A stretch of DNA of 64,000 bases from an uncultured Leptospirales bacterium (GCA_964392365.1 CAYMPH010000004.1:134678-198677), one strand, 5' to 3'. Positions 1 through 22,557 are shown, counted from the stretch's first letter. The notes: a model not told the origin generated them from the sequence alone. Translations and numbers: made by a program.

Positions 1-453
1 ACGTTTTGAATCCTGCGGAGTCATCATCATTGTTCTCCAGCATAACGAGGCTAGATCATTTGCACCGCCCGATCCGGGGAAACGCACTTTAGGTTTTGAA
101 TGATCATTGCCTATCATTGTTGAGTTGATATTTCCGTACATATCAATCTGAGCTCCGCCGAGAAATGTATAATCCACCATTCCGCGCTGGCAGGTTTCCA
201 TTATTTCCGGCATTGAACTTGCCATGATTGCCTTATGAAATGTCCGCGAGTCACCCACTGAAATAGGCATTGCAGGCAGAAACGGCGCAACTCCGCCTGC
301 TTCAAACATGATACATAAATTAGGTGAATGGGTTTTCTGGGACAGCATTGCTGCAGCGCATGGAGCGCCGGTTCCGACTACAACAGTTGCCCCGTCTTCG
401 AGATTGCGAGCTGCTATACAGATCATCAGCTCCATTGAATTGAAATCAGCCAT
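1..453 (-). CDS. CoA-transferase beta subunit (glutaconate CoA-transferase GctB-like), partial; C-terminus lies beyond the window start
   Basis: Reverse-complement translation from the ATG at 451-453 gives MADFNSMELMICIAARNLEDGATVVVGTGAPCAA...GGAQIDMYGNINST...RFPGSGGAND, typical of family I CoA-transferase B subunits. Its start overlaps the upstream gene's TAA by 1 nt (TAATG). Confidence 0.75.
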   Translation of the reverse strand, partial: MADFNSMELMICIAARNLEDGATVVVGTGAPCAAAMLSQKTHSPNLCIMFEAGGVAPFLPAMPISVGDSRTFHKAIMASSMPEIMETCQRGMVDYTFLGGAQIDMYGNINSTMIGNDHSKPKVRFPGSGGANDLASLCWRTMMMTPQDSKR

Positions 454-1457
454 TACTTTTTACCTCCGGGTTCAGTATCGATAAGAAATTCCTGAGCTCT
501 GAGTTTCTGAATCTTTTTAATGCCGCCGTTCAATTCTAGATATTCATAAAAATCTTTCGTTCCGTATATCTGTTTATCCATAAATTTTTTAAATTCGTCA
601 GGGTCTTTTTCAGCAGCAAGCCATTCCTTGATATATACTTCATCGGAAAAATATTCATACGGCATATTTCCCGGATAGCTTCCAAATGGAACTTCAACTA
701 CAGCATCTACACACCAGAACGGTATAAAGGTGCTCTCTGGATTCTGCCGGATTTCTTCATTAGTGATCAGACGTTCTGTTGTAAGTACAACCCTCTTCGA
801 TGCTTTAGCAAGATCCTGGTCAGACACAGAAGCGCCGTAAACACGTGCATTGCCGTATATGTCGCATTCATGAACATGGATTGCTGCAAAGTCCGGATAG
901 AGCGCAGGAAGAGCTGCGAATTTTTTCCCAGTGAAAGGGCATTCTATTTCTTTTGCAGCGCTGTATTCAAAAGTATCTGTACCGAGTATATTCCTCGTGG
1001 GCATAAAAGAGAGTCCCATTGCAGCAGCCTTCAGTCTCCATGAGAGCGAGGCATTTGTCCATTCGGTAAGTTTTATTTTCCCGCTCTGAACAGCTCTTCT
1101 GGCATTCGGCGACAGCCCTCTGGCTTCAAGTCCTATTATGTAAGCCACGTCGCATCTGTCTATGCATTCGCCGCCTACTAGTATCTGAAAGTCGTGCGTG
1201 GCAGTATGTCCGGCAAGAGCAAGATTCTTTTTTTTCTGTCGAACTATCTCATGCAGTATAGCGGTTGGTATTCTGTTTGCTCCGAAACCGCCAATCCCGA
1301 TATAGTCACCGTCTTTGAGCATGGTCCTGACAACCTCATCTGCAGTTGAAATTTTTGATTTCAACGCACGGGATTTGGTTTTAAAAAATGCCCTTGCATT
1401 ATCAGGATCCGGATCTGTGAAAAGTTCATTTCGTCCAGTTTTAAGTTGTACGCTCAT
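453..1457 (-). CDS. CoA-transferase alpha subunit (glutaconate CoA-transferase GctA-like)
   Basis: 334 aa ORF. The GDYIGIGGFG, HVHECDIYGN and EEIRQNPESTFIP motifs resemble GctA/3-oxoacid CoA-transferase A subunits. It is translationally coupled to the B subunit. Confidence 0.75.
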   Translation of the reverse strand: MSVQLKTGRNELFTDPDPDNARAFFKTKSRALKSKISTADEVVRTMLKDGDYIGIGGFGANRIPTAILHEIVRQKKKNLALAGHTATHDFQILVGGECIDRCDVAYIIGLEARGLSPNARRAVQSGKIKLTEWTNASLSWRLKAAAMGLSFMPTRNILGTDTFEYSAAKEIECPFTGKKFAALPALYPDFAAIHVHECDIYGNARVYGASVSDQDLAKASKRVVLTTERLITNEEIRQNPESTFIPFWCVDAVVEVPFGSYPGNMPYEYFSDEVYIKEWLAAEKDPDEFKKFMDKQIYGTKDFYEYLELNGGIKKIQKLRAQEFLIDTEPGGKK

Positions 1458-1531: not shown

Positions 1532-3346
1532 TTAAGCTTTATCTTCTACATACATTGATTCAATAATTTCTTTATATTTTTCTTTTATTACATTTCTCTT
1601 AACTTTTAATGAAGGTGTCAGATCACCGCTTTCCTGAGAAAACTCTTTCTGAACAATAGTATATTTTTTTATGGTTTCATAACGGGCAAGATGGTTGTTA
1701 AGTTCGTTAACATGCTCCTGAACAATTTTAAGAAAATCCTTATTTGTAAGCAGTTCTTCCGGCTTAGAGAATAAAATTTTATTTTCCATGGCAAGCTTTG
1801 CCGCCTGCTCGAGATTGATATTGCAAAGTGCAGTAAGATATTTTCTCAGATCTCCAATAACTATAAACTGTGTAAATAGCGGATCAGACTTGAAAAGATT
1901 TTCAATCTTCTGCGGAGCGACATTTTTTCCGCCGGAAGTAATGATCAGATCTTTTTTTCTATCTGTAACAAGTAAAAAACCGCTTTCATCAAAATAACCT
2001 ATATCGCCAGTCATCAGATATCCGTCATCTGTAAAAGCTTCTCTGGTCTCTTCTTCCATTTTCCAGTATCCCTTGCAGACATTTCCGCCTTTTAAAAGTA
2101 TTTCTCCATCATCTGCAATTTTTATATTCATGCAGGGTATCGGAGCGCCTGTAGTTCCGATTTTATAATTGGCAATATTCTGCATTGTAGCAGGTGCGCA
2201 GCATTCTGTCATGCCGTATCCCTGAATAACCATAATTCCCGCAGCATTAAAAAAACGGATTATCTCAATAGATGTAGGAGCGCCTGAAGCGGTCATCCAG
2301 CGCACACGTCCGCCAAGAGCATTCTGTAAATTTTCAAAAATCATCTTGTATGCTATTCTATATTTTATTCTCAATAAAAACGGGATTCGCCTTTTTGCTT
2401 CTCTGCGTTCACTTATTTTCGTGCCGACCTTCTGCCCCCAGTAAAATATTTTTCTTTTTAATGGAGATGAAGCTTCTACCTTTGAAATTATCTTCTGGTA
2501 TACCTTTTCGCAAACCCTGGGAACAGCGAGAACAACAGTAGGCTTCTTATCATAAAGATCTGCAAGCAGCGTATCAATGCTTTCAGCGTATGAGGATGTA
2601 ATCCCTACATACATGCCGTACCAGTGGCCTGCAACACGTTCAAAAACGTGACTTAAAGGAAGAAATGGAACAGTTTGATCCGTATCATAAGCATAGTGAG
2701 GTTCAACCTGATCAAGAGCTTTAATAACAGAGATCACATTATTATGAGTAAGCATCGCTCCTTTTGGAAGTCCTGTAGTTCCGGATGTATAAACAATTGT
2801 TGCAAGGTCTTCAAGATCAGCATCATCTGCAAGCTTCTCAAACAATGCCTCATTTTTTTTATATTCTTCGCGGCCTATTTTAAACAGATCATTAAAGCTT
2901 AAAACAAAATCCGGCGTGTTGTCTGCATCCTCATTTTTCATTACAATAATTTTCTGAAGCCCTTTGAAACGCTCTTTAACATATAAAGCTTTTTTCAGCT
3001 GAATTTTGTTTTCAACAATCATAATTTTTGATTCTGAATTGCTCACAATATATTCAGCTTCCTCATCAGTCAGGGTTGGATAGATAGGGATAACACAGGC
3101 GCCTATACCAAGAATTCCCATATCTGAATAAAGCCATTCAAGCCTGTTTTCAGAAAGGATTGAAACTCTGTCGCCTTTTCTAACACCAAACGAATACAGG
3201 GCCATACCAACAGTCCGCGATCTTTCATAATAATCATTCCACGAAGCGCTTTCCCATTTTCCGTTTAATTTTTTTTCGATAGCAAGACGGTCGCCGTATT
3301 TTTTTGCGCGATTTCTAAAAACCTGATTTATCGTTTTTTCTTCCAT
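1532..3346 (-). CDS. long-chain fatty acid-CoA ligase (AMP-forming acyl-CoA synthetase)
   Basis: 604 aa ORF with the AMP-binding motif YTSGTTGLPKGAMLTHNN and a downstream TGD...GY motif. SD AAGGGGGA lies upstream. Confidence 0.85.
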   Translation of the reverse strand: MEEKTINQVFRNRAKKYGDRLAIEKKLNGKWESASWNDYYERSRTVGMALYSFGVRKGDRVSILSENRLEWLYSDMGILGIGACVIPIYPTLTDEEAEYIVSNSESKIMIVENKIQLKKALYVKERFKGLQKIIVMKNEDADNTPDFVLSFNDLFKIGREEYKKNEALFEKLADDADLEDLATIVYTSGTTGLPKGAMLTHNNVISVIKALDQVEPHYAYDTDQTVPFLPLSHVFERVAGHWYGMYVGITSSYAESIDTLLADLYDKKPTVVLAVPRVCEKVYQKIISKVEASSPLKRKIFYWGQKVGTKISERREAKRRIPFLLRIKYRIAYKMIFENLQNALGGRVRWMTASGAPTSIEIIRFFNAAGIMVIQGYGMTECCAPATMQNIANYKIGTTGAPIPCMNIKIADDGEILLKGGNVCKGYWKMEEETREAFTDDGYLMTGDIGYFDESGFLLVTDRKKDLIITSGGKNVAPQKIENLFKSDPLFTQFIVIGDLRKYLTALCNINLEQAAKLAMENKILFSKPEELLTNKDFLKIVQEHVNELNNHLARYETIKKYTIVQKEFSQESGDLTPSLKVKRNVIKEKYKEIIESMYVEDKA

Positions 3347-3370: not shown

Positions 3371-4150
3371 TTATCTGCCTTTAAAAACAGGTTTCCGCTT
3401 TTCAAGAAAAGCGGTTATTCCCTCTTTCTTATCATCGCTTTCAGCAAGTTTCCCGAACAATCTGCTTTCCAGTTTTAAAGCTTCTTCTTTTGACAGCTCA
3501 ACACTGAGGTTAATTGTTTCAATTATTGCAGCAACAGAAAGAGGTCCTTTAAATGCAATATCCTTTGCAAGTTTCATTGCCTCTTCCATCAATTTATCCG
3601 GCGGCGCAACCCTGTTCACAAGACCAACTCTCTCAGCTTCTTCAGATCCGATAAACTTTCCTGTCAGAATATACTCCATGGCTTTTGCTTTCCCGAGAAG
3701 CCTCGTCATTCTCACAATTCCTCCGAATGCAGGCATAATGCCAAGCATCACCTCTGGAAGTCCCATTTGAGCTCCCTCTGCTGCAATACGCATATGGCAT
3801 GCAAGCGCCAGTTCAGTTCCGCCTCCCAGGCACGCCCCGTTAATTGCTGCAATGACCGGTTTCTTTGAATTCTCTATAAGATTTGTTATTTCATGTGCCC
3901 TTCCTGAAAGGCGCTCACCTTCTTCAGCATTCTTAATATTCTGAACTTTGTTCACGTCCGCTCCTACAACAAAAGTTGCTCCGGCTGCTGTAATAATAAC
4001 TGCCTTAACCCTGTCATCGACTTCAATCTGATGTATGCAGAATTCGAGCTCAAGCATTGTAATTTCATCCAGCGAGTTCATCGGAGGATTATTGATTATA
4101 ATCGTTGCAACACCCTTATCCGTTACATCATAATTGACTTTTTGTCCCAT
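3371..4150 (-). CDS. enoyl-CoA hydratase (crotonase family)
   Basis: 259 aa ORF with the crotonase fold signature AAINGACLGGGTELALACHMRIAAE. Confidence 0.85.
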   Translation of the reverse strand: MGQKVNYDVTDKGVATIIINNPPMNSLDEITMLELEFCIHQIEVDDRVKAVIITAAGATFVVGADVNKVQNIKNAEEGERLSGRAHEITNLIENSKKPVIAAINGACLGGGTELALACHMRIAAEGAQMGLPEVMLGIMPAFGGIVRMTRLLGKAKAMEYILTGKFIGSEEAERVGLVNRVAPPDKLMEEAMKLAKDIAFKGPLSVAAIIETINLSVELSKEEALKLESRLFGKLAESDDKKEGITAFLEKRKPVFKGR

Positions 4151-4285: not shown

Positions 4286-5713
4286 CTATCTTTTCTTAAG
4301 ACCCATAATTTCTCTTGCTTCGTCAGGAGTTGCAGGTGTACGTCCGAGAGCCTCGGCAATTCTTACAGCCCATTCAACCTGCTCATAGCTTCCCTTGGCA
4401 AGATCGCCGTTAGGAACGCGTATATTATCCTCAAGACCAACCCTCATATGTCCGCCCAGCAGACATGACTGAGTTATGGCAGGGAACTGATCCTGTCCGA
4501 CACCGCAGGTTGTGAAATTGCAGTTATCAGGCATCGCATTTTTCAGTGCAATAAATGCATCCGCTCTGAAAGCCTGGCCTCCGGCAACTCCCCAAACAAA
4601 ATTGAGATTATACGGCGCGCTGAAAATTCCCTGTTTGCCTATAAGCATCCAGTTGTCGAGTCCGCCCATATCATAGATTTCAATTTCAGGTTTTACTCCG
4701 TTATCAAGCATGGCTTTGGCAAAATCCTGAAGCATAGTGAAGGTGTTTTCAAAAACAAAATCTATAAATATCTTACCGGTCTTACGGTCGATTATACTGA
4801 AATTCATTGTATTGGTATTCAATGAAGCCATTTCCGGCTTAATAGCTACTATCTGCGAAATCCTCTGCTCAGGAGTCTTGCCCATGCCAACTGCAGAACT
4901 GAGATTGACTATCAGCTCAGGACACTTGTCCTTAATAGCATCATGTGTAGCCTTGATTCTCGCATGATCATGAGTAGCCATACCGTTGGATTCTCTTGCA
5001 TGCACATGAACCATTGCAGCTCCTGCCTTATAGCATTTATAAGCTTCATTTGCAAATTCTTCGGGTTCATATGGAACATTTTCATTCTGATTTTTCATTG
5101 TAGCTGCTCCTGTAAGAGCTGCAGTAATTATAACGTTGCTATACATATCTCCATGGCCTCCTTTCTGTTTTTTCGCCTGAGGAACTGATGCTACTGACGG
5201 ATCTGAAGAACCAGCGGACTCAGATCTGTCTTTCATAGAAATCTTCGAGACTTTACTCGGCTTAAAGTGATCTATATCAAGAATTGTACTGGTCGTTTCT
5301 TTTGCAAATACAGCTTCCACTCTCATTCCTGTTTTTACTTCAGAAATATCTGTTTCTTCAAGAATATGCATAAAAGGCGAATCTGCACCATCGAGTTTTA
5401 TCAGCGCCAGTACAAATGGAGCCTTCCTCGGCAGATGTTTGTCATCATACCTGACTACTGTAAAATTGACAACCTCACCTGTGTTCTGAAGTTCAACCCA
5501 GTTGTCTCTTATGTCTGTAAAATCTTTTTCACATACCTGACGGGGCGGAACATATACTTTATTGCACTTGGGGCAATTAACACCCATAATTATTTTTTTA
5601 TCCCTGATCGTAGTAATAAATTTACTGCCGAGTCTTCCAGGGAAGTATGTATAGGGGAGTGCCAGTTTCCCTTCTACTATGAAACAATCTTTCTTATCGT
5701 ATTCAAGGCTCAT
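4286..5713 (-). CDS. fusion protein: N-terminal DUF35 (Zn-ribbon + OB-fold, acyl-CoA-associated) and C-terminal BKACE/DUF849 beta-keto acid cleavage enzyme (3-keto-5-aminohexanoate cleavage enzyme Kce-like)
   Basis: N-terminus carries CPKCNKVYVPPRQVC (Zn ribbon) followed by an OB-fold-like region. C-terminus carries IITAALTGA...VHVHARE...PEIEIYDMGG...GGHMRVGLEDN...ATPDEAREI, the BKACE/Kce signature. Strong SD AAGGAGGGG. Confidence 0.8.
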   Translation of the reverse strand: MSLEYDKKDCFIVEGKLALPYTYFPGRLGSKFITTIRDKKIIMGVNCPKCNKVYVPPRQVCEKDFTDIRDNWVELQNTGEVVNFTVVRYDDKHLPRKAPFVLALIKLDGADSPFMHILEETDISEVKTGMRVEAVFAKETTSTILDIDHFKPSKVSKISMKDRSESAGSSDPSVASVPQAKKQKGGHGDMYSNVIITAALTGAATMKNQNENVPYEPEEFANEAYKCYKAGAAMVHVHARESNGMATHDHARIKATHDAIKDKCPELIVNLSSAVGMGKTPEQRISQIVAIKPEMASLNTNTMNFSIIDRKTGKIFIDFVFENTFTMLQDFAKAMLDNGVKPEIEIYDMGGLDNWMLIGKQGIFSAPYNLNFVWGVAGGQAFRADAFIALKNAMPDNCNFTTCGVGQDQFPAITQSCLLGGHMRVGLEDNIRVPNGDLAKGSYEQVEWAVRIAEALGRTPATPDEAREIMGLKKR

Positions 5714-5724
5714 CGTTCCCCTCC

Positions 5725-7266
5725 TTATTGATCTATTTCAAAATACTTGATATCGAAAATGCTGCCCACACGCTTTTCATTCCATACAGGCCTGACTCGT
5801 GTGCCGGCAACGTCGTTTTTCCCATTCTTGATCAGATCAATCTGATCACGTCTTACAAGGTGAGCAAAAGTGTCATTGCCGGTACATCCATCGAGAAGTA
5901 TATTCAGCATACCATATGGAGTTTCCCTTGTTTCTCCTGTAAGAGGATCAGGGCTGGAAAAATAAACATATTCCATATAGCGGACCTGGCCTTTCGGACC
6001 GACTTCCAGCCATTCTGTTGCAGGAATACGGCACTCTGCACAAACATCACGTGCAGGCAGATGAACCCTTCCGCATTTCGGGCATTTATTTGTAAAAATT
6101 TTCTTTTCTTTGAGAGCATGAAGAAATCTTCCCATTATAGGGCCGGTTGCAAAACGCTGATTTACTGATATTGTTTTTTTCAGAACAAGCAGTTCTTCCT
6201 TTTCAGCCTCTCCTCCAGTTGCAGGTGGTATATACTTGGAAAAAATTTCACCAAGTTTTAAAGCTAACTCGGTTTTGCCTTCTATTGAAGCCCTTCCAGC
6301 AGAAAGAAGCGAAAAAGGATCTGTCTTGCCGAGCATAACGTCAACCCAGTCTTTCGCTTCATTAACGCACAATTTAGTTGTCGGCTTTTCAGGCTGACCT
6401 GTTTTAAGATCGCACTTGCCGCCTTTGATATAAGCAGTCCATTTACCGCCGCCCTCTCCGCCGATATCATATGTAATTGTTGCATCAAGATCAGGAACAG
6501 CTTTAGGCTGAAATCTATGAACAAGAGTACCGAACATATCGAGGATGTAATCCTTAGTAGTGAACTCAACTTTTTTAGGTTCGTACTTCGCAAAAATTTC
6601 TCCAAGCTTAAGAGCAATCTCTGTTTTTCCTTCAATTGAAGCTCTGCCTGCTGATAATAGCGAAAAAGGATCTGTCTTGCCGAGCATAACATCTACCCAG
6701 TCTTTTGCTTCATTTACATTAAGCTTGGTTGTAGGTTTTTCCGGCTCGCCTGTTTTAAGATCACATTTGCCGTCTTTTATATATGCAGTCCAGACTCCTC
6801 CGCCTTCTCCGCCGATATTATACGTGATGCTAGCATCAAGCCCCGGAGCTCCCTTAGGCTGAAAACGGGAAACAAGGGTGCTGAACATATCCTGAATATA
6901 ATCAGCTGTGCCCATTTCTTTCTTGGCAGGTACAAATTTTTTAAACATTTTTGTCGTTTTACCGAAAGTACCCATATCACCTTCAAGCTTTACCTTTCCC
7001 GACATGAAAGCGTTTGTTGCATCAACCTTTCCTATATTAACACCGATGAAATTTTCCTCGCTTGCTTTCATAATTGTTACGCAGCCGGAAAGATCATCAG
7101 TCTTTTCCACTTTCATTGAATCATTCTTTACTGCAAGCTTCCACTTGCCCGCCCCTTCAATGTCGTATCCGAATAAAGCGTCAACACCCTTTGCGCCTTC
7201 AACACGAAAGCGGTCTTTCATGGTGTTGAATATATCTTCTACCTTTACTCCCCAGTATTCTGTCAT
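5725..7266 (-). CDS. triple SCP2 (sterol-carrier-protein-2) domain protein with C-terminal DUF35 (Zn-ribbon/OB-fold) domain
   Basis: Three tandem repeats of about 110 aa (YIxDMFxTLVxRFQPK...ITYxIGGEGGGxWTAYIKxGKCDLKTGxPEKPTTKL), then CPKCGRVHLPARDVCAECR. The likely true start is the ATG at 7264-7266 (MTEYWGV) preceded by AGGAGGA. The longer track ORF to 7386 overlaps the upstream gene. Confidence 0.75.
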   Translation of the reverse strand: MTEYWGVKVEDIFNTMKDRFRVEGAKGVDALFGYDIEGAGKWKLAVKNDSMKVEKTDDLSGCVTIMKASEENFIGVNIGKVDATNAFMSGKVKLEGDMGTFGKTTKMFKKFVPAKKEMGTADYIQDMFSTLVSRFQPKGAPGLDASITYNIGGEGGGVWTAYIKDGKCDLKTGEPEKPTTKLNVNEAKDWVDVMLGKTDPFSLLSAGRASIEGKTEIALKLGEIFAKYEPKKVEFTTKDYILDMFGTLVHRFQPKAVPDLDATITYDIGGEGGGKWTAYIKGGKCDLKTGQPEKPTTKLCVNEAKDWVDVMLGKTDPFSLLSAGRASIEGKTELALKLGEIFSKYIPPATGGEAEKEELLVLKKTISVNQRFATGPIMGRFLHALKEKKIFTNKCPKCGRVHLPARDVCAECRIPATEWLEVGPKGQVRYMEYVYFSSPDPLTGETRETPYGMLNILLDGCTGNDTFAHLVRRDQIDLIKNGKNDVAGTRVRPVWNEKRVGSIFDIKYFEIDQ

Positions 7267-7276: not shown

Positions 7277-8476
7277 TTACCAGTTAAGGTCCTTTTCAAG
7301 CATTGTGAGAACTGTCCACATAGTTCCGCCGAAACCCGACGCAAGAGCATGATTAACTTCAGTAGGTATCTGATGGTCTCCTGCATCTCCCCTGACCTGC
7401 AGAGCAGCCTCAGCTACGCGTATCAGCGCAGTAGCTCCTATAGGATTAGACGCAATAACACCTCCCGAAGGATTGATAGGCATCTTTCCGCCGATCATTA
7501 TCTCTTTATTTTCCACCAGTTTCAGATGCTCATCACCCTTAAGCTGGAAGAAATCCCTTATCCAGTCAACACCCCACCAGGATGCTGGATCATACATTTC
7601 AAACACATCAAAATACTCAAGAGGCTCTTTAATATTATTTCTTTTATAAAGATTTTCAGCAGCAAAACGATGAGTCATAGGCACAGGGTATTTTTCATCA
7701 TATCCGAAAAAGATGAATGTTTCCTCTCTATGAACTGTTATATGATCGCGGACCCAAACCGGCTTTTTGGAAATCTTTTTTGCCGTTTTTTCTTCAGCAT
7801 ATATAACTACACACGCTCCATCAGACTGCGAACACATTTCAATCAGCTTCAGATCTCCAACAAGTTTAGGTGATGTCTTAATAAGGTCATCTATCTGTTC
7901 AAATTCTAGACCAAAAGCGCGGTGAGCATTCTTATTCTTAACTGCATGCTTATCCATAATTATTCTATACATAAGGGAGGCACGCTTGGCCCTTTCTTCG
8001 CCGAATTCGCTGATTGATTCATATGCCTTGGATCCGGTAAGTGCACCTGTCTGAAGATTCCTGAACCAGAGAGGATCCGCCATGTTCGTAATACCGCCGG
8101 TGGTGTGCCCCTCCTGCTGCTTCTCAAAACCGATAGCCATAACAATATCATACATTCCGGATGCTACCAGGTTGTCTGATGCACATGAAAGTGTTGCACC
8201 GACTGTGCCCCCGGTTGTTATCCGTATTGATTCCTTGCCGTATGCCCCGGTACCGAGAGTATGCCAGCAGTCCGGCTGGTGAATCATTTCAAACAACTCC
8301 ATATTTCCATGCACAATACAGTCTATATCTTTCATGGTAAGCCCTGCATCTTTTAGTGCTGCACTTACAGCTTCATGTATCATTTCAGGCTGATTTACAT
8401 CTTCACGGTGACTGGAAAATTTCGTCATGCCGATTCCTATAATTCCGACATTTCTGTTTTTCTTTCTATGAGCCAT
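7277..8476 (-). CDS. thiolase-like protein (SCP-x / Ltp2-type, thiolase fold)
   Basis: 399 aa ORF with thiolase-fold N- and C-domains (GIIGIGMTKF..., INPSGGVIASNPIGATALIRVAE). SD AAGGAGG. The expected His of the G-H-P motif appears as Asn (SNPIGAT). Confidence 0.7.
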   Translation of the reverse strand: MAHRKKNRNVGIIGIGMTKFSSHREDVNQPEMIHEAVSAALKDAGLTMKDIDCIVHGNMELFEMIHQPDCWHTLGTGAYGKESIRITTGGTVGATLSCASDNLVASGMYDIVMAIGFEKQQEGHTTGGITNMADPLWFRNLQTGALTGSKAYESISEFGEERAKRASLMYRIIMDKHAVKNKNAHRAFGLEFEQIDDLIKTSPKLVGDLKLIEMCSQSDGACVVIYAEEKTAKKISKKPVWVRDHITVHREETFIFFGYDEKYPVPMTHRFAAENLYKRNNIKEPLEYFDVFEMYDPASWWGVDWIRDFFQLKGDEHLKLVENKEIMIGGKMPINPSGGVIASNPIGATALIRVAEAALQVRGDAGDHQIPTEVNHALASGFGGTMWTVLTMLEKDLNW

Positions 8477-8488
8477 AATATAACCTCC

Positions 8489-9634
8489 TTATTTCTCCAT
8501 TATTACAACTGCCTGATGCTGGGCAGCCGGACCATAAGAGGCCTGCGCAAGGGCTTTCTTTACACCTTTCACCTGGCGCTCGCCCGCTTCTCCGCGAAGC
8601 TGCAGAAAACATTCAATTGCTCTTGCAGCCCCGCCCAACAGAAGAGGATTGCCGTTAAGCATACCGCCGGAAAGATTAACATTATATTTATCCATTCCGC
8701 CGTCTTCAATCCACTTGCCGCCTTTGCCTTCATCAGCAATACCAACACCCTCTGCCCACATAGGCAGCTGATAAGCAGCCTGGTCGCTTAATTCAAATAT
8801 ATTGATTTCTTTTTTAGGATCTTTTATGCCTGACATTTTATATGCTCTTGAAGATGCATTTTTTAATGAAAAATTTGAAGCAAGGTCTTTATCTCCAAGG
8901 AAATAGCTGTCCATGCAGCTTCCGTATCCTGTAATCCAGATAGGGTTGTCTGTAAATTCCTTAACACGATCTTCTGTACAGAGAAGCATTCCATATGCCC
9001 AGTCAGTAACCGGATAATAATGAAGATCCCTTATAGGATCTGAAAGCAGCGGGGAATTCATTACTTCTTTTTCATCAACCATTTTGTTGTCGCGCGCGTA
9101 TGGATTCTTTTTGGAATTTTTCCTGGAACGTACAACAATCTTTGCAAGATGTTCCTCGGACAATCCGGATTTTTCCATATACGCTCTTGCCTGCAATGCG
9201 CTCACATTTAAATGGTCCATGCCAAGCGGCCTGCAGTAAAACGGATCAAAAGTCAGGTTTGTAACCATCCTTCTGCTCTCACCCTGAGATTCCTTGCAGT
9301 GCCCCATAAATAAAATAACATCATCGTGGCCTGACTTTATGCACGACATCGCATATCCAAGGCCGTTGATGCTTTCCTGCGCCATTTTTTCTTCGCCCCT
9401 GAACTGCGCTCCAACAACATCAGTGACTCCGTTATTTGAAATGGTACGGGCATCAAACATGTCATCAGAACAGGTGATAATATTCCTGATTCCCTTATCC
9501 ATATCAAATGAAACTTTAGTCTGGGTCTTGATAGATTCAAAACATTCATGCAGCATATTCTGAAATCGCGCATGCCAGGCATCGGCTTCGTTCTTAATCT
9601 GTGCTACTGCACATAACGCAACACGATTACTCAT
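8489..9634 (-). CDS. thiolase-like protein (second paralog, probably non-canonical or inactive thiolase fold)
   Basis: Likely start MSNRVALCAV at the ATG 9632-9634 preceded by AAGGAGGA. The C-terminal NLSGGMLNGNPLLLGGAARAIE matches the thiolase GHP region, again with Asn in place of His. The track ORF extends to 9709. Confidence 0.6.
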   Translation of the reverse strand: MSNRVALCAVAQIKNEADAWHARFQNMLHECFESIKTQTKVSFDMDKGIRNIITCSDDMFDARTISNNGVTDVVGAQFRGEEKMAQESINGLGYAMSCIKSGHDDVILFMGHCKESQGESRRMVTNLTFDPFYCRPLGMDHLNVSALQARAYMEKSGLSEEHLAKIVVRSRKNSKKNPYARDNKMVDEKEVMNSPLLSDPIRDLHYYPVTDWAYGMLLCTEDRVKEFTDNPIWITGYGSCMDSYFLGDKDLASNFSLKNASSRAYKMSGIKDPKKEINIFELSDQAAYQLPMWAEGVGIADEGKGGKWIEDGGMDKYNVNLSGGMLNGNPLLLGGAARAIECFLQLRGEAGERQVKGVKKALAQASYGPAAQHQAVVIMEK

Positions 9635-9893: not shown

Positions 9894-10442
9894 CTATATA
9901 TAACAGTTCCAGAAATCTCCTTTTTTTACAGCCCTTATAATTGAATCTTTGTCCCTGTCAGTATCCATCTCGATCCAGGCTCTTCCAATGTTGATATTAT
10001 CATGCGAATCATCAGAAGCAATTCTGGGATACCCCCAGTCTATATCATCGAAAACGCTTTCCCTGAATCCCTTAGAGGTTATTTCAACTGCATCAATCGG
10101 ATAAAGTTTTGAAAGGTCTTCAAGTCTTGATTTGACCTGTTCAACTGAAAGATCATATTCTCCAATATGATTAAAAATATGCAGGACCTCGTTATCTCCC
10201 TCGATCCGGTTAACGTGTACATATCCTTTTACAAAAACTGTCAGTTCCAAACCGTAAAATAAAATCATCCTGGTACTTACACTATTCAATGCACTCCGGT
10301 AATCCGCTTTCAGCAGATAATCATGATCTGTCACAGCGATAAAATCATAACCCAGACTTTCGTATGCATCAGCCATCTCCTGCGGAGTCAGCTTTCCGTC
10401 CGAAAACGACGTATGAGAGTGAAGACAGCCTCTTAGAATCAA
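9894..10442 (-). CDS. PHP-domain metal-dependent phosphoesterase
   Basis: 182 aa ORF with the N-terminal HSHTSFSDG motif and later His/Asp clusters typical of PHP phosphoesterases. Confidence 0.7.
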   Translation of the reverse strand: MILRGCLHSHTSFSDGKLTPQEMADAYESLGYDFIAVTDHDYLLKADYRSALNSVSTRMILFYGLELTVFVKGYVHVNRIEGDNEVLHIFNHIGEYDLSVEQVKSRLEDLSKLYPIDAVEITSKGFRESVFDDIDWGYPRIASDDSHDNINIGRAWIEMDTDRDKDSIIRAVKKGDFWNCYI

Positions 10443-10471: not shown

Positions 10472-10497
10472 TTATTGGTCGGATGTTCAACCAATAA
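10472..10497. promoter_or_regulatory. 27-nt palindromic element TATTGGTCGGATGTTCAACCAATAAAT, copy 1 (probable operator/promoter element about 30 nt upstream of the PHP gene start)
   Basis: Identical to the copy at 11951-11977. Inverted 7-nt arms TATTGGT/ACCAATA with a 10-nt spacer. Confidence 0.5.
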
Positions 10498-10569: not shown

Positions 10570-11232
10570 CTACATCATTGCTATTAATTTATCAGAAATA
10601 ATAAGATCAGCATCAGTTAATGACCTGATCTCTTCTATATTTGTTGATGAATGAATTTCTGTTAAAATCAGACCTTTCCCGTTTATAATCATTACACCCA
10701 GCTCTGTTACGATCATGCTTACTTTGCCTTTAGCTGTTATCGGAAGTGTGCATTTTTTAAGAATCTTTGACTTCCCGCCTGCTGTATGAGTAGTAGCAAC
10801 AATAACTTTTTTTGAACCTGCAGCAAGATCCATTGCACCGCCTATACCAGGAGTTTTTTTACCCGGAATTATCCAGTTGGCAAGATTCCCATCCTGGTCA
10901 ACCTCCAGAGCCCCCAGAACGGTAATATCTATATGACCTCCTCTAATTAAAGAAAACGAAAGTGACGTATCAAAAATTGCACCATGTGAAAGAACTTCAA
11001 CATGCTGTCCTCCTGCGTTGGTAATATTTGAATTAATTCTATCACCCTTAACAATCTCCCCCATTCCGGTTAAACCGTTTTCTGAAAAAATTGTAACTTC
11101 AACTTTTGGAGGAATATAATTTGAAACAAGCGACGGCAGGCCAATTCCAAGATTTACAGTCTGCCCGTCTTTCAGTTCCCTGCCTATTCTTTTAGCGATA
11201 ATTTCCTGAGCCATATTTTTATCTGTTATCAT
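10570..11232 (-). CDS. atoA: 3-oxoacid CoA-transferase subunit B (acetate/butyrate-acetoacetate CoA-transferase beta)
   Basis: 220 aa ORF with [10 protein letters not shown]...[19 protein letters not shown] typical of the AtoA/ScoB family. Confidence 0.85.
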
Positions 11233-11241
11233 ATCAGCACC

Positions 11242-11898
11242 CTACTTTTTCCCTTCGATTACATAATCAACCACAACACCAGGAGTTACAAAATTTTCCG
11301 GTTCAATATCTCCGAATTCTACAATATTTTCAGCCTGCACAATTACAGTGTCTGCAGCCAAAGCCATAGTCGGATTATAATTTCTTGATGTGCCGAAATA
11401 TCTCGTATTCCCGTATGGGTCAACCTCGCTGCCTCTGATCAGAGCTACGTCTGCGCGAAGCGGCAGCTCAAGAATATAATCCTTCCCGTCAATTTCAACT
11501 TTCCGTTTTCCATCCTCAACAAGAGTGCCAAGGCCAATCTGGGTAAGCACACCGCCGAGACCTGCTCCGCCTGCGCGTATTCTTTCTATAAGAGTTCCCT
11601 GAGGATTGAATTCAACTTCCATGGATTTATCATTATAACGCTTAATAGCTTCAGGATTGGTTCCGAGATGAGTTGTTATATATTTTTTTATTCTTCCAGC
11701 AGCAATAAGACGCCCTATTCCGCGCTCAACATAAGATGAATCATTGCCTATAACTGTGAGATTTGCCAGTCCCATATCAATCATTAGATCAATAATATTT
11801 TCCGGAGTTCCGACTCCAAGAAAACCGCCAATCATGACTGTCATCCCGTCTTTTAAAAAAGGCTTAATGCCCTCGATATCGGTAATTTTGTTTTTCAT
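11242..11898 (-). CDS. atoD: 3-oxoacid CoA-transferase subunit A (acetate/butyrate-acetoacetate CoA-transferase alpha)
   Basis: 218 aa ORF with DGMTVMIGGFLGVGTPENII...RGSEVDPYGN typical of the AtoD/ScoA family. SD AGGAGAG. Confidence 0.85.
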   Translation of the reverse strand: MKNKITDIEGIKPFLKDGMTVMIGGFLGVGTPENIIDLMIDMGLANLTVIGNDSSYVERGIGRLIAAGRIKKYITTHLGTNPEAIKRYNDKSMEVEFNPQGTLIERIRAGGAGLGGVLTQIGLGTLVEDGKRKVEIDGKDYILELPLRADVALIRGSEVDPYGNTRYFGTSRNYNPTMALAADTVIVQAENIVEFGDIEPENFVTPGVVVDYVIEGKK

Positions 11899-11950: not shown

Positions 11951-11977
11951 ATATTGGTCGGATGTTCAACCAATAAA
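11951..11977. promoter_or_regulatory. 27-nt palindromic element TATTGGTCGGATGTTCAACCAATAAAT, copy 2 (about 55 nt upstream of the atoD start)
   Basis: Exact repeat of 10472-10497. Confidence 0.5.
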
Positions 11978-12039: not shown

Positions 12040-13635
12040 TCAGATATTTTTTTTATTATTCATTTCCGCTTTTGGAATAAAGCTCATTGCCCTTTCGGCC
12101 AGTGCTGTAATCGTGAGACTCGGATTCACTCCTACGTTCGCTGAGATAGCTGAACCATCAACCACGAATATATCCGGATAACCGAAAAGACGGTTATTTG
12201 AATCTATAACGCCATTTGCTGATGACGAACCCATGTGACACCCGCCGAGAATATGGGCAGTAACAGAAAGATTGCCGATACTCTCGATAGTATTATTGAG
12301 CGGATGACCTCCACTGACTTCAGAAAGAACTTTTGCAGCGCGGTTGGCAATGCTTAAATTAGAAGGAGCTTCCTTACCTTTAATTCTGTGAGACTTCAGC
12401 CTTCTTTTAAGAAACAGTGCTGCAATTGTTCTTCCGTATGTAAATGCCACCTGGTTATCAAGGTGCTGCATTACTGTAAGCACTGTAATTCTCTTGTGCC
12501 AGTTGCGCGCGAACATAATTTTAAAAAATACATAGGGATTTGATATAATCTTAAAAAGAGATATAAGAGTACGTTTAAACGGATTATTATTATCCACCAG
12601 AGGTCCGAAGTAGAATCTCATAAACGAGTATCCTTTAGGAAAACGGTTCTGGGTGATATGCGTATGATCATCCGGGTAAAAATCGGAAGAAATTGTTGTG
12701 CCTTTTGAAAGGTCCAGATCTTTATCAGGAGAAAAACTTGCAACTATAGCTTCGCTGTTTGTGCGGACCACTTTTCCCGTTTCACGTGATATTTTTCTTA
12801 AAGATTTAGTAACATCGCGGCAGCGGAACAGCAGTTCAAGAGTTCCAAGAACGCCTCCGGCAATAACAATCTTTCCGCATTGCAAAGAAGGATACTTTCT
12901 TCCGCTTAGAGGGTCTTTTATCTGAAGCTCGTATCCTCCTTCAGAGAGAGGGGTGATGTTTACTACCTTACGGTTAGGCAGTATTGCTGCGCCGAGCTTC
13001 TGCGCGAGAAACAGATAATTTTTATCGAGAGTATTCTTTGAGCCGTGAGGACAGCCTGTTATGCATTCTCCGCAGTGATGGCATCCTTCGCGTGATGGCC
13101 CCTGACCTTTAAAAAAAGGATCTGCCTTCACAACTTTACTTTTTCCGAAATATATTCCATTACGGATTGGACCCCATGTCCTGCCTGCGCCCATGGCCTT
13201 TGCTGTTTTTTTCAGATTTTCATCCATCTCGCTTTGAGCTGGATTTATTTCTACTCCAAGCATGCGCTCTGCTGTTGCGTAGTGGGACTTAAGCTCTTTC
13301 ATCCAGTTCACTCCCAGACCGCTCCATGCAGGATCGCTGTAGAATGCATCTTTCGGACGAAGCAGAACAGCAGCATATACTATACTGCCTCCGCCGACGC
13401 CGGCTCCGCCGACTATTCCAATATGTTTATATAAAGGCTGCATAAAATATCCGCCAAGTCCAAGAGACGGCATCCAGAGGAGTCTTCTTAGATTGGTTGA
13501 AGCCTCCTCCATATCAGCAGGGCTTACCCACGATCCCTGCTCAACAATTGCTACCTTATAACCCTTTTCAGAAAGACGAAGAGCGCTGACACTTCCGCCG
13601 AAACCGCTGCCGATGATGATATAATCATAAATCAT
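12040..13635 (-). CDS. GMC-family FAD-dependent oxidoreductase (cholesterol-oxidase-like), paralog 1
   Basis: 531 aa ORF with the N-terminal FAD motif DYIIIGSGFGGSVSA, a CHHCGECITGCPHGSKNTLDKNYL segment, and a C-terminal GMC region HILGGCHMG. Confidence 0.75.
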   Translation of the reverse strand: MIYDYIIIGSGFGGSVSALRLSEKGYKVAIVEQGSWVSPADMEEASTNLRRLLWMPSLGLGGYFMQPLYKHIGIVGGAGVGGGSIVYAAVLLRPKDAFYSDPAWSGLGVNWMKELKSHYATAERMLGVEINPAQSEMDENLKKTAKAMGAGRTWGPIRNGIYFGKSKVVKADPFFKGQGPSREGCHHCGECITGCPHGSKNTLDKNYLFLAQKLGAAILPNRKVVNITPLSEGGYELQIKDPLSGRKYPSLQCGKIVIAGGVLGTLELLFRCRDVTKSLRKISRETGKVVRTNSEAIVASFSPDKDLDLSKGTTISSDFYPDDHTHITQNRFPKGYSFMRFYFGPLVDNNNPFKRTLISLFKIISNPYVFFKIMFARNWHKRITVLTVMQHLDNQVAFTYGRTIAALFLKRRLKSHRIKGKEAPSNLSIANRAAKVLSEVSGGHPLNNTIESIGNLSVTAHILGGCHMGSSSANGVIDSNNRLFGYPDIFVVDGSAISANVGVNPSLTITALAERAMSFIPKAEMNNKKNI

Positions 13636-21649: not shown

Positions 21650-21694
21650 CTAATTCCGCTAAAAAACCAGATGTTTCTCCATTCAGGCATTTTG

Positions 21695-21735
21695 TATGCA
21701 AATTGCAAGTATTTTATTGCAAATTGCAAATATTT
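21695..21735. promoter_or_regulatory. four TTGCAA hexamers (two TTGCAAATTGCAA units) in the divergent marR / 21862 gene intergenic region; candidate MarR operator
   Basis: tatgcaaATTGCAAgtattttaTTGCAAATTGCAAatattt. TTGCAA is self-complementary. Confidence 0.5.
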
Positions 21736-22515: not shown

Positions 22516-22557
22516 TAATATATAATTTTTCTTTAAAAAAAAACAGCGGGGTTAAAT

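What the first reader, a model, noticed from the sequence alone, without database searches (positions are those of the whole stretch)
7277..9634. Both thiolase-fold proteins appear to lack the canonical catalytic His (Asn in the G-H-P motif) and probably the nucleophilic Cys
In the C-terminal region, where thiolases carry GHPxGA(T/S)G, these proteins read SNPIGATAL and NGNPLLLGGAAR. In the N-terminal region, where the Cys nucleophile normally sits, they read TTGGTVGATL and VVGAQF. This pattern resembles Ltp2-type retro-aldolases and inactive scaffolding thiolase paralogs more than true thiolases. It fits a non-thiolytic C-C cleavage (aldolase or BKACE-assisted) role in the complex.
Basis: inference. 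Interest (0 to 1): 0.55.

Follow-up and report, generated by a model that had tools for sequence, protein, structure and literature searches.

The report
Cysteine-less thiolase-fold pair, probable aldolase hub
Two adjacent, highly conserved thiolase-like proteins have lost every residue a thiolase needs; they most likely form a mixed carbon-carbon lyase core, distantly related to the sterol side-chain aldolases Ltp3/Ltp4, to which a beta-keto-acid cleavage enzyme and lipid-carrier domains are tethered, in a gene module found in at least 193 uncultured bacterial genomes.

Summary
Protein A (7277-8476, minus strand, 399 aa) and protein B (8489-9634, minus strand, 381 aa) have the SCP2-thiolase fold. 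Both lack the nucleophilic Cys, the His and Cys of the HDCF motif, and the GHP His.

- A has G90, Y295-D-P297 and N344. All are invariant in 121 homologues.
- B has S88, S283-D-Q285 and N329. Positions 88, 283 and 285 vary among homologues.
There is still no Cys there.

A carries the Gly plus Tyr-Asp signature of the thiolase-fold retro-aldolases Ltp2, Sal and SLP. B looks like a non-catalytic partner.

The pair is a distant relative of actinobacterial PRK08313/PRK07937 pairs (32% and 26% identity), which I take to be the Ltp3/Ltp4 type.

The core PHP-B-A-(SCP2)n-DUF35-DUF35x recurs across 83 loci from Spirochaetota, Smithellaceae/Syntrophales and Desulfobacterales. The second DUF35 is fused to BKACE, fused to MaoC, or free. 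Enoyl-CoA hydratase, acyl-CoA dehydrogenases, CoA ligase, CoA-transferases and, in 10 loci, aldehyde:ferredoxin oxidoreductase lie nearby.

Best reading: a DUF35-stapled heteromeric retro-aldolase hub. This is not shown biochemically. I rate it a new variant of a known kind.

The parts
8489..9634 (-). Thiolase-fold protein B (381 aa), B-type. It has a 3-residue deletion in the nucleophile loop, with S88 at the Cys position (codon 9371-9373). S283-D-Q285 replace HDC (8780-8788). N329 replaces the GHP His (8648-8650). It is the probable non-catalytic partner subunit.
   Evidence: Pfam Thiolase_C_1 at 2e-21. PDB hit 4yzo at 1.6e-33. AF2 pTM 0.86; Foldseek hits are SCP2-type thiolases with TM about 0.8. 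hhalign to the A family. Positions 88, 283 and 285 vary in 121 homologues.
7277..8476 (-). Thiolase-fold protein A (399 aa), A-type. G90 sits at the nucleophile position (codon 8207-8209). Y295-D-P297 replace HDC (7586-7594). N344 replaces the GHP His (7445-7447). It is the probable catalytic (retro-aldolase-like) subunit.
   Evidence: PDB hit 6hsj at 3e-27, with alignments. NCBIfam PRK08313 scores 265 bits, the best hit but below the 514-bit cut-off. AF2 pTM 0.85; Foldseek SCP2-thiolases, Ltp2, Sal and SLP. R85, T88-G-G-T91, F292-E-M-Y-D-P297, N344, I346 and T349 are invariant in 121 sequences, and G347/A348 differ in only one sequence.
5725..7266 (-). Carrier/staple protein: three SCP2 lipid-binding domains followed by a DUF35 zinc ribbon (CPKC...CAEC) and a C-terminal OB-like part.
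   Evidence: Pfam SCP2 in 3 stretches, plus zf-ChsH2. PDB hits 3irb and 6esq_E DUF35, and SCP2 domains. Found next to A in 74-78 of 83 loci.
4286..5713 (-). DUF35 (zinc ribbon + OB, residues 1-140), a non-conserved linker of about 50 residues, then BKACE (194-472). Zn ligands are intact (H-V-H, and E in GLEDN).
   Evidence: Pfam BKACE 310 bits, OB_ChsH2_C, zf-ChsH2. Alignment to Kce 2y7d. Conservation and linker. Fused in 45-48 of 83 loci; stand-alone BKACE 74-82% identical elsewhere.
9894..10442 (-). Small PHP-family metal-dependent hydrolase, conserved directly upstream of B. Role unknown.
   Evidence: Pfam PHP and PHP_C. Present in 51-56 of 83 loci. Only weak NCBIfam and PDB matches.
3371..4150 (-). 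Crotonase-type enoyl-CoA hydratase. It would supply a 3-hydroxyacyl-CoA.
   Evidence: Pfam ECH_1 at 1.8e-65. NCBIfam PRK07658 270 bits, EchA19 model 226 bits, both below cut-off. Found in 35-45 of 83 loci.
1532..3346 (-). Long-chain-type acyl-CoA ligase (AMP-forming).
   Evidence: Pfam AMP-binding. NCBIfam FadD11-like, 358 bits, below cut-off. Found in 41-49 of 83 loci. In a Desulfosudis MAG an AMP-ligase domain is fused to SCP2-SCP2-DUF35 as a 1006-aa protein.
1..1457 (-). Two-subunit CoA-transferase. Alpha is 453-1457 (334 aa). The first ~150 aa of beta are at 1-452, cut by the window edge.
   Evidence: Pfam CoA_trans. Alpha in 33 loci and beta in 28 loci. Translation of 1-452 matches the 256-aa beta subunit of relatives. 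Adjacent to the stand-alone BKACE in L085.
10570..11898 (-). 3-oxoacid CoA-transferase subunits B (10570-11232) and A (11242-11898). They would activate acetoacetate, the BKACE product.
   Evidence: NCBIfam TIGR02428 270.7 bits (cut-off 243.55) and TIGR02429 205.8 bits (cut-off 128.5), both passed.
12040..13635 (-). GMC flavoprotein oxidoreductase, cholesterol-oxidase-like, with a CxxCxxCxxxCP motif.
   Evidence: Pfam GMC_oxred_N and GMC_oxred_C. NCBIfam ChoxAB 487 bits, below the 850-bit cut-off. Upstream of PHP-B-A in 5 loci.
19119..21047 (-). Aldehyde:ferredoxin oxidoreductase. It is nearby but not in the operon here. In relatives it lies in the same gene string.
   Evidence: Pfam AFOR_N and AFOR_C. 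The family is present in 10 loci. It follows the ECH gene within a few hundred bases on the same strand in Desulfobacterales loci, and lies upstream of GMC-PHP-B-A in Smithella-like loci.

Best explanation
A and B form a heteromeric SCP2-thiolase-fold core that cannot perform thiolysis.

Roles of the parts:
- A is the catalytic subunit of a retro-aldol type lyase. Tyr295 would act as general base on the beta-hydroxyl of a 3-hydroxyacyl-CoA. Gly90 replaces the nucleophile. Asn344 stands where the GHP His polarises the thioester.
- B is a structural partner.
- Each DUF35 zinc-ribbon/OB domain docks on the core, as DUF35 does on Ltp2, Sal, BbsB, PhlC and archaeal thiolases. One DUF35 brings SCP2 lipid-carrier domains. 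The other brings an intact BKACE, or in other lineages a MaoC hydratase or nothing.

Proposed flow: acyl-CoA ligase, then acyl-CoA dehydrogenase pair, then ECH or MaoC hydratase, then A/B cleavage to acetyl-CoA plus an aldehyde or ketone. Aldehyde:ferredoxin oxidoreductase and a ligase or CoA-transferase recycle the shortened product. BKACE consumes acetyl-CoA plus a beta-keto acid to give an acyl-CoA and acetoacetate, which the 3-oxoacid CoA-transferase activates.

Shown: loss of all thiolase catalytic residues; the aldolase-type Gly/Tyr signature and its invariance in A; relaxed sites in B; the conserved gene module; exchangeable DUF35 fusions; an intact BKACE.

Inferred: heteromer formation, DUF35 docking, the lyase reaction, the substrate, and how BKACE is coupled.
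For: - Residue mapping to solved thiolases.
- A's G90, Y295, D296, P297 and N344 are invariant in 121 sequences, while only 35% of A's positions are invariant.
- B varies at positions 88 (S/G/A), 283 (S/C/N/K/D) and 285 (H/A/S/Q/R).
- Among representatives, 32 of 49 A-type proteins have Tyr at position 295 and 39 of 49 have Asn at 344. B-type proteins have no consensus at 295.
- In the published aldolases Ltp2, Sal and SLP, Tyr replaces the HDCF His and is the catalytic base, and Sal has Gly at the nucleophile position (PMC12329534).
- Both models fold as SCP2-type thiolases, and the structural neighbours are mostly DUF35-binding enzymes.
- B-A adjacency holds in all 83 loci, separated by short gaps (12 nt in the window, 3-12 nt in the other loci mapped). 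Both DUF35 queries hit in 78 of 83 loci, several of the rest being cut by contig ends.
- Streptomyces has ECH, a double-DUF35 protein, a B-type and an A-type gene in a row. The two thiolase-fold proteins pass NCBIfam PRK07937 ('lipid-transfer protein') and PRK08313.
- ltp3 and ltp4 are cited as aldol-lyases needed for C24-branched sterol side chains, and the Mtb gene order is Rv3521-ltp4-ltp3 (PMC6593523, PMC6429209).
- DUF35 is fused to BKACE, to MaoC, or to ligase-SCP2 in different lineages.
- AOR recurs in 10 loci.
- The BKACE Zn and catalytic residues are intact.
- The 3-oxoacid CoA-transferase subunits pass their family cut-offs.
Against: - A lacks the second catalytic residue of the characterised aldolases. 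It has Pro297 where Sal has the essential Cys304. It has Asn344 at the offset where Ltp2 has Tyr344; that mapping rests on spacing only.
- A and B fall well below the NCBIfam cut-offs of PRK08313 (265 vs 514 bits) and PRK07937 (146 vs 419 bits).
- The aldol-lyase role of Ltp3/Ltp4 is itself genetic inference.
- No complex model could be made. The monomer models have low-confidence loops near the active site.
- AOR occurs in only 10 of 83 loci, and in this window it is 9 kb away.
- A simple aldolase scheme does not explain why a BKACE is tethered or where its beta-keto acid comes from. No carboxylase or 3-hydroxyacyl-CoA dehydrogenase is conserved nearby.
Confidence: 0.55

Rival explanations
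1. Both proteins are pure pseudoenzymes. The A/B heteromer is only a docking platform for DUF35-tethered enzymes (BKACE, MaoC hydratase, acyl-CoA ligase) and SCP2 carriers. All chemistry is done by those partners.
For: Every canonical catalytic residue is lost in both proteins. DUF35 fusions to three different enzymes in different lineages point to a hub role. An archaeal KT/DUF35 complex is known to bind further pathway enzymes (bioRxiv 10.1101/2024.07.05.601840).
Against: A's former active-site loops are invariant, and many charged residues are invariant, which is more than a scaffold needs. In Desulfobacterales the module has SCP2-DUF35 plus a free DUF35, so that complex would hold no enzyme at all. 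The A-type Tyr and Asn are conserved down to about 30% identity.
Confidence: 0.2
2. A/B catalyses another Cys-independent reaction on CoA esters or beta-keto acids. Examples are decarboxylation (as in TbSLP with malonyl-CoA, or KS-CLF/KSQ) or a non-covalent Claisen or acyl-transfer step that works together with BKACE.
For: TbSLP, which has YDCF and no thiolase activity, decarboxylates malonyl-CoA slowly (PMC12329534). BKACE recurs near B-A-DUF35 sets even in Bathyarchaeia and lies close to the module as a stand-alone gene in a Desulfosudis MAG. This suggests linked chemistry around beta-keto acids and acetoacetate. An ADC-like gene lies nearby.
Against: The SLP decarboxylase rate is very low, and the authors themselves propose that SLP is an aldolase. 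Hydratase, acyl-CoA dehydrogenase and AOR neighbours fit a 3-hydroxyacyl-CoA lyase better.
Confidence: 0.15
3. They are genuine thiolases that use a non-canonical nucleophile elsewhere in the sequence.
For: A has invariant C215 and C222.
Against: C215 lies in the 'C-x-x-SDGA' stretch, which aligns to 'CCPTSDGA' of SCP2-thiolase. To my knowledge that stretch is not catalytic. The nucleophile, HDCF and GHP positions are all replaced in both proteins and in hundreds of relatives.
Confidence: 0.02

Closest known systems
Ltp3/Ltp4 of actinobacterial sterol catabolism (NCBIfam PRK08313 / PRK07937 type pairs)
   Same: Adjacent A-type and B-type SCP2-thiolase-fold genes, both Cys-less, next to DUF35 and near ECH and a CoA ligase. 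A-type has TxG(G/S)...Y...NP. B-type has a shortened nucleophile loop. Full-length alignments give 32% (A) and 26% (B) identity to a Streptomyces pair that passes these models. ltp3 and ltp4 are cited as aldol-lyases (PMC6593523).
   Different: Scores are far below the family cut-offs. The hosts are Spirochaetota and Desulfobacterota MAGs, not Actinobacteria. There are two separate DUF35 proteins, fused to SCP2 repeats and to BKACE, instead of one double-DUF35 protein. A PHP gene is present. That PRK08313/PRK07937 equal Ltp3/Ltp4 rests on my memory plus gene order, not on a sequence test.
Ltp2-ChsH2(DUF35) and Sal-Shy(DUF35) steroid side-chain retro-aldolases (PDB 6ok1, 9myr)
   Same: SCP2-thiolase fold, Gly at the nucleophile site, Tyr-Asp replacing His-Asp of HDCF, and a DUF35 partner that can be fused to a MaoC hydratase. 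Foldseek E-values are 1e-24 and 2e-20.
   Different: Those enzymes are homodimers of one aldolase, whereas here there are two diverged subunits. Their second catalytic residue is not conserved: Tyr344 in Ltp2 and Cys304 in Sal, against N344 and P297 here. Sequence similarity is weak (6ok1 E = 2.4e-7).
Archaeal thiolase/HMG-CoA synthase/DUF35 complex (6esq) and the Sulfolobus KT/DUF35 fatty-acid-synthase hub
   Same: DUF35 staples a thiolase-fold dimer to other pathway enzymes. These are among the top structural matches.
   Different: Those thiolases keep the Cys/His/Cys machinery, and their partners are separate proteins rather than DUF35 fusions.
PhlABC / MucABC multicomponent acyltransferases
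   Same: A hetero-oligomer of two different thiolase-fold proteins plus DUF35, with one subunit catalytically silent (PMC12960953 listed).
   Different: PhlC keeps a catalytic Cys88, and the second subunit is KAS-III/HMGS-like rather than an SCP2-thiolase paralogue.
BKACE (Kce, 2y7d) family
   Same: The C-terminal 280 residues of the neighbouring protein are a full BKACE with its Zn ligands.
   Different: The N-terminal DUF35 fusion is not mentioned in any paper in the searched library.

Membership tests
Thiolase (SCP2-type, EC 2.3.1.16/2.3.1.176) | Nucleophilic Cys at the N-terminus of helix N-alpha3 (CxS/CxT loop) | tested here: not met
   A has G90 and B has S88 (S/G/A in homologues).
Thiolase (SCP2-type, EC 2.3.1.16/2.3.1.176) | HDCF motif (His and acid/base Cys) | tested here: not met
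   A has Y295-D-P-A and B has S283-D-Q-A.
Thiolase (SCP2-type, EC 2.3.1.16/2.3.1.176) | GHP His | tested here: not met
   A has S-N344-P and B has G-N329-P.
Thiolase (SCP2-type, EC 2.3.1.16/2.3.1.176) | Thiolase fold | tested here: met
   Pfam Thiolase_C_1. AF2 pTM 0.85 and 0.86. Foldseek TM 0.75-0.83 to SCP2-type thiolases.
Ltp2/Sal/SLP thiolase-fold retro-aldolases | Gly at the nucleophile position and Tyr replacing the His of HDCF (the catalytic base) | tested here: met
   Met for A only: G90 and Y295 are invariant, and the motif equivalence comes from PMC12329534. Not met for B (S283, variable).
Ltp2/Sal/SLP thiolase-fold retro-aldolases | Second catalytic residue (Tyr344 in Ltp2, or Cys304 of YDCY in Sal) | tested here: not met
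   A has P297 at the Cys304-equivalent position. It has N344 at the +49/+50 offset where Ltp2 has Tyr344 and Sal has Gln352. That offset mapping is inferred; no residue-level alignment to 6ok1 or 9myr was obtainable.
Ltp2/Sal/SLP thiolase-fold retro-aldolases | DUF35 partner bound to the aldolase | not testable with these tools
   Two DUF35-bearing genes directly follow A. Both DUF35 queries hit in 78 of 83 loci. Physical binding was not tested.
Ltp2/Sal/SLP thiolase-fold retro-aldolases | Retro-aldol activity on a 3-hydroxyacyl-CoA | not testable with these tools
   Only context supports it: ECH or MaoC, acyl-CoA dehydrogenases and AOR are neighbours.
Ltp3-type (NCBIfam PRK08313) and Ltp4-type (PRK07937) | Score above the curated family cut-off | tested here: not met
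   A scores 265 bits against a cut-off of 514. B scores 146 bits against 419, and B's best hit is PRK06066 at 203 bits against 516. A Streptomyces pair passes with 706 and 563 bits.
Ltp3-type (NCBIfam PRK08313) and Ltp4-type (PRK07937) | Adjacent B-type then A-type genes with DUF35 alongside | tested here: met
   Seen in the window and in all 83 loci, in Streptomyces L084, and in the archaeal loci L087 and L088.
BKACE (PF05853), for the tethered partner 4286-5713 | Pfam score above the gathering cut-off, plus Zn-binding His-x-His and Glu | tested here: met
   310 bits against a cut-off of 24.8. HVH and GLEDN align to Kce 2y7d. NCBIfam Kce equivalog cut-offs are not reached (264 vs 382 bits), so the substrate is unknown.

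The most novel reading that the evidence does not exclude
The A/B pair may be the catalytic hub of an undescribed, widespread 'aldolytic beta-oxidation' metabolon of anaerobes. DUF35 staples, covalently fused to BKACE, MaoC hydratase, acyl-CoA ligase and SCP2 carrier domains, would dock the pathway on a Cys-less thiolase-fold heterodimer.

Retro-aldol cleavage of a hindered 3-hydroxyacyl-CoA would release acetyl-CoA plus an aldehyde, which goes to aldehyde:ferredoxin oxidoreductase. For 3-hydroxy-3-alkylglutaryl-type intermediates it would instead release a free beta-keto acid.

The tethered BKACE would then use both products (beta-keto acid plus acetyl-CoA) to regenerate an acyl-CoA and acetoacetate without ATP or free CoA. 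This would give bulky or branched lipids, such as sterol or isoprenoid side chains, a thiolase-free degradation route.
Probability: 0.25. Interest if true: 0.8.

Novelty: new variant of a known kind. Interest (0 to 1): 0.6.

Why it matters
Thousands of database entries for these proteins are named 'acetyl-CoA C-acetyltransferase' or 'thiolase family protein', yet they cannot be thiolases. Metabolic reconstructions of Spirochaetota, Smithella/Syntrophales and Desulfobacterales MAGs that count them as beta-oxidation thiolases are therefore wrong.

The module shows DUF35 acting as an exchangeable, genetically fused docking tag that assembles different enzymes on one thiolase-fold core. It also gives a tractable non-actinobacterial model for the uncharacterised heteromeric pairs that I equate with Ltp3/Ltp4.

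If the aldolase and BKACE coupling holds, it defines a thiolase-independent C-C cleavage route for lipids in anoxic sediments and digesters.

Tried and rejected
- **Literature.** No paper in the library holds DUF35 together with BKACE. Nothing links the module to Smithella, Syntrophus or Desulfococcus physiology.
- **Alignment to Ltp2 and Sal.** I could not make a residue-level alignment. Aggett et al. 2019 is not held, the Sal paper has no supplement held, and the PDB tool prints only the top alignments. The equivalence of N344 to Ltp2 Tyr344 and Sal Gln352 therefore rests on spacing alone.
- **Structure.** Model coordinates are not exposed, so I did no pocket or interface analysis.
- **Missing pathway genes.** I looked for a conserved carboxylase or a 3-hydroxyacyl-CoA dehydrogenase in the 83 neighbourhoods, to explain where a beta-keto acid for BKACE would come from. 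None was found.
- **Other scans.** The promoter and terminator scan was uninformative (41 sites against 35.9 expected). There are no tRNAs, and no canonical thiolase among the window ORFs of at least 150 aa that were scanned.
- **Rejected readings.** I rejected genuine thiolases with another nucleophile. I also rejected B's 'VVGAQF' as the nucleophile site.
Full report
**What is there.** The finding covers two adjacent minus-strand genes. B is 8489-9634 (381 aa). Its ATG sits 8 nt after an AAGGAGG ribosome-binding site; the longer GTG-started ORF beginning at 9709 is probably not used. A is 7277-8476 (399 aa).

Both proteins hit Pfam Thiolase_C_1. Both match only SCP2-type thiolases and thiolase-like proteins in the PDB. 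A's best hit is zebrafish SCP2-thiolase 6hsj (3e-27). B's best hit is Sulfolobus ST0096, 4yzo (1.6e-33). AlphaFold2 models have pTM 0.85 and 0.86. Foldseek confirms the fold, with TM 0.75-0.83. The neighbours are mostly DUF35-binding enzymes: archaeal thiolase/HMGCS, BbsB, Ltp2, Sal and PhlC. TbSLP is also among them.

**Check of the observation.** All quoted peptide strings are present.

In the HMMER alignments to solved thiolases:
- A's I-T-T-G-G90-T-V-G aligns to V-N-N-N-C-S-T-G.
- A's E-M-Y295-D-P-A aligns to E-L-H-D-C-F.
- A's S-N344-P-I-G-A-T aligns to G-H-P-L-G-A-T.
- B's E-L-S283-D-Q-A aligns to E-V-H-D-C-F.
- B's G-N329-P aligns to G-H-P.

B's N-terminal 90 residues did not align to PDB entries, so I aligned the B-family profile to the A-family profile. 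B K83 pairs with A R85, and B S88 pairs with A G90. There is still no Cys at or near that position.

Both proteins thus lack the nucleophilic Cys, the His and Cys of HDCF, and the GHP His.

**Is it degeneration or design?** Each protein has thousands of homologues. The best 120 of each are 70-96% identical, across Spirochaetota and several Desulfobacterota orders.

In A the former active-site loops are essentially invariant across 121 sequences: R85, T88-G-G-T91, F292-E-M-Y-D-P297, N344, I346 and T349 never change, and G347 and A348 differ in a single sequence. Only 35% of A's positions are invariant.

In B, position 88 is S/G/A, position 283 is S/C/N/K/D, and position 285 is H/A/S/Q/R. N329 is kept in 116 of 121 sequences.

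A search of 1.84 billion cluster representatives found 739 clusters at E <= 1e-10. I aligned the 74 full-length proteins among the top 150:
- 49 are A-type or related. Of these, 32 have GG at positions 89-90, 32 have Tyr at 295, and 39 have Asn at 344.
- 22 are B-type, with a 3-residue deletion in the nucleophile loop and no consensus at 295.
- Only 5 are canonical Cys...HDCF...GHP thiolases.

The Cys-less state is therefore ancient and selected. A looks like an enzyme with a remodelled site, and B like a constrained but non-catalytic partner.

**Relation to known aldolases.** The Sal paper (PMC12329534) states several points:
- SCP2-thiolase HDCF corresponds to YDHF in Ltp2, YDCY in Sal and YDCF in TbSLP.
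- The Tyr is the catalytic base.
- Sal has Gly where thiolases have the nucleophile.
- The second catalytic residue differs between enzymes: Tyr344 in Ltp2 and Cys304 in Sal.

A has the Gly and the Tyr-Asp. It has Pro at the Cys304-equivalent position, and Asn at the +49 offset where Ltp2 has Tyr344 and Sal has Gln352. That last mapping is by spacing only.

By family models, A is closest to PRK08313 (265 bits, cut-off 514). B is closest to PRK06066, PRK08313 and PRK07937, all below cut-off.

A Streptomyces locus carries, in order, a CoA ligase, ECH, a double-DUF35 protein, a B-type protein that passes PRK07937 ('lipid-transfer protein', 563 bits), and an A-type protein that passes PRK08313 (706 bits). 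The window proteins are 26% and 32% identical to these over their full length.

The Mtb gene order Rv3521-ltp4-ltp3 (PMC6429209) matches this layout. ltp3 and ltp4 are cited as aldol-lyases essential for C24-branched sterol side chains (PMC6593523). The equation of PRK08313/PRK07937 with Ltp3/Ltp4 rests on my memory of the annotations plus this gene order. It was not tested with the Mtb sequences.

**The module.** A scan of GTDB species representatives found 193 genomes with a close A homologue. All are MAGs: Spirochaetota/Leptospirales-like, Smithella/Smithellaceae/Syntrophales, Desulfobacterales (including Desulfonema and Desulfosudis oleivorans) and Desulfomonilia.

I compared 83 loci:
- B-A adjacency is universal.
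- A PHP-family gene precedes B in 51-56 loci.
- An (SCP2)1-3-DUF35 protein follows A in 74-78 loci.
- A second DUF35 gene comes next. It is fused to BKACE in 45-48 loci (Spirochaetota, Smithella). It is free, at about 155 aa, in Desulfobacterales. It is fused to a MaoC hydratase (299 aa, 13 loci) in a paralogous set.

In a Desulfosudis MAG, one 1006-aa protein combines AMP-ligase, SCP2, SCP2 and DUF35. There the BKACE is a stand-alone gene next to a two-subunit CoA-transferase, divergently transcribed from the same cluster.

Further recurrent neighbours are ECH (35-45 loci), a long-chain-type CoA ligase (41-49), the alpha/beta CoA-transferase (33 and 28), a pair of acyl-CoA dehydrogenases (24-26), a cholesterol-oxidase-like GMC flavoprotein (5) and aldehyde:ferredoxin oxidoreductase (10).

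The oxidoreductase follows the ECH gene within a few hundred bases on the same strand in Desulfobacterales. In Smithella-like loci it lies upstream of GMC-PHP-B-A.

Archaeal loci also show B-A-DUF35 (Lokiarchaeia, Bathyarchaeia). The Bathyarchaeia locus has a BKACE about 2 kb downstream.

The window's BKACE keeps the Zn ligands and catalytic Glu of Kce. A non-conserved linker of about 50 residues joins it to the DUF35 domain.

The window additionally has a 3-oxoacid CoA-transferase A/B pair that passes its TIGRFAM cut-offs. Such an enzyme would activate acetoacetate, the BKACE product.

**Most likely mechanism.**

Established:
- The pair cannot do thiolysis.
- A keeps a conserved pocket with the aldolase-type Gly/Tyr.
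- B is relaxed at those sites.
- Two DUF35 modules always accompany the pair and carry exchangeable cargo.
- The surrounding enzymes make and consume 3-hydroxyacyl-CoA, aldehydes, beta-keto acids and acetoacetate.

Inferred:
- A and B form a heteromer. Each subunit binds a DUF35, as in the solved Ltp2, Sal, BbsAB, PhlABC and archaeal complexes.
- A cleaves a 3-hydroxyacyl-CoA by retro-aldol chemistry, with Tyr295 as base and Asn344 polarising the thioester.
- SCP2 domains present a hydrophobic substrate.
- AOR oxidises the aldehyde product.
- The tethered BKACE uses the released acetyl-CoA.

This parallels the Shy/Sal/Sad and ChsH/Ltp2 logic of steroid side-chain removal. I give this reading a confidence of 0.55.

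**What does not fit.** A lacks an obvious general acid. No 3-hydroxyacyl-CoA dehydrogenase or carboxylase is conserved nearby. The source of a beta-keto acid for BKACE is unexplained.

One speculative solution is that the lyase substrate is a 3-hydroxy-3-alkylglutaryl-CoA-like intermediate. Its cleavage would give acetyl-CoA plus a free beta-keto acid, which are exactly the two BKACE substrates. I found no carboxylase to make such an intermediate.

The substrate itself is unknown. Hints of a sterol-like or bulky lipid are weak and all below family cut-offs: SCP2 domains, two cholesterol-oxidase-like GMC proteins, an EchA19-like hydratase score, and a Rieske protein faintly like a methylsterol monooxygenase.

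**Rivals.**
- A pure scaffold (0.2). This is disfavoured by A's invariant pocket and by module variants that carry no tethered enzyme.
- Another Cys-independent chemistry, such as decarboxylation (0.15).
- A genuine thiolase with an alternative nucleophile (0.02).

**Novelty and verdict.** Cys-less thiolase-fold aldolases and DUF35 stapling are known. Heteromeric Ltp3/Ltp4-type pairs are known genetically but not biochemically.

What is new here:
- a distant, highly conserved subfamily in uncultured bacteria from groups that are mostly anaerobic;
- the fixed PHP-B-A-SCP2/DUF35-DUF35x module;
- the DUF35-BKACE, DUF35-MaoC and ligase-SCP2-DUF35 fusions, which mark the pair as an assembly hub.

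No paper in the searched library describes any of these. I rate it a new variant of a known kind, with interest 0.6.

Noticed in passing
window 10473-10496 and 11952-11975 (minus strand): An exact 24-bp palindrome, TATTGGTTGAACATCCGACCAATA, occurs twice. One copy lies in the intergenic gap upstream of the PHP gene and the other upstream of 3-oxoacid CoA-transferase A. Zero matches are expected by chance. It looks like a shared operator site.
   Followed up: partly
window 6233-6891: A 351-bp tandem duplication (1.9 copies, 78% matches) adds a third SCP2 domain to the SCP2-DUF35 protein. Relatives have one or two SCP2 domains.
   Followed up: partly
window 4286-5713, residues 47-64 of the protein: The DUF35 zinc ribbon of the BKACE fusion reads C-x2-C-x10-C-x2-D. 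The fourth ligand is Asp in 64 of 81 sequences and Cys in 17. This recalls the Cys3His variant reported for Shy.
   Followed up: partly
window 12040-13635, 23636-25312, 26611-27591: Two GMC oxidoreductases are closest to the NCBIfam 'cholesterol oxidase ChoxAB' model (487 and 616 bits, cut-off 850). The first has a CHHCGECITGCP four-Cys motif. A Rieske/VanA_C oxygenase is faintly like 4beta-methylsterol monooxygenase (87 bits, cut-off 600). Together these give the neighbourhood a sterol flavour.
   Followed up: partly
window 21128-23328: A MarR regulator, an acetoacetate-decarboxylase-family protein (217 aa, weak Pfam hit) and an SDR sit next to the aldehyde:ferredoxin oxidoreductase. They may be related to acetoacetate handling.
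   Followed up: no
window 9894-10442: A small PHP-family metallohydrolase is conserved immediately upstream of B in 51-56 of 83 loci. It has no convincing specific family match, and its role in the module is unexplained.
   Followed up: partly
window 1-452 (minus); loci L016, L031, L038: The window start cuts the beta subunit of the CoA-transferase. In relatives this gene is followed by a second, divergent DUF35-B'-A' set, 35-42% identical to the first. These genomes therefore carry several such pseudo-thiolase pairs.
   Followed up: partly
L085 (Desulfosudis oleivorans MAG DYJD01000005.1): A 1006-aa fusion combines AMP-ligase, SCP2, SCP2 and DUF35 and lies next to A and B. Nearby are a DUF35-MaoC fusion and a stand-alone BKACE with CoA-transferase alpha/beta, transcribed divergently.
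   Followed up: partly
L088 (Bathyarchaeia) and L087 (Lokiarchaeia): Archaeal B-A-DUF35 trios exist. The Bathyarchaeia locus also has an ADP-forming acyl-CoA synthetase and a BKACE within 3.3 kb. This suggests the link between BKACE and pseudo-thiolase pairs is old.
   Followed up: no
window 31742-32311: An IS200-like Y1 transposase lies among lipid A acyltransferase and glycosyltransferase genes.
   Followed up: no
B residues 56-85 (window about 9380-9469): The most conserved stretch of B, S-D-D-x-F-D-A-R-T-I-S ... R-G-E-E-K, is the least confidently modelled (pLDDT below 50). The equivalent loop of A (61-79) behaves the same way. It is probably an interface or a substrate-cleft element that is ordered only in the complex.
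   Followed up: no
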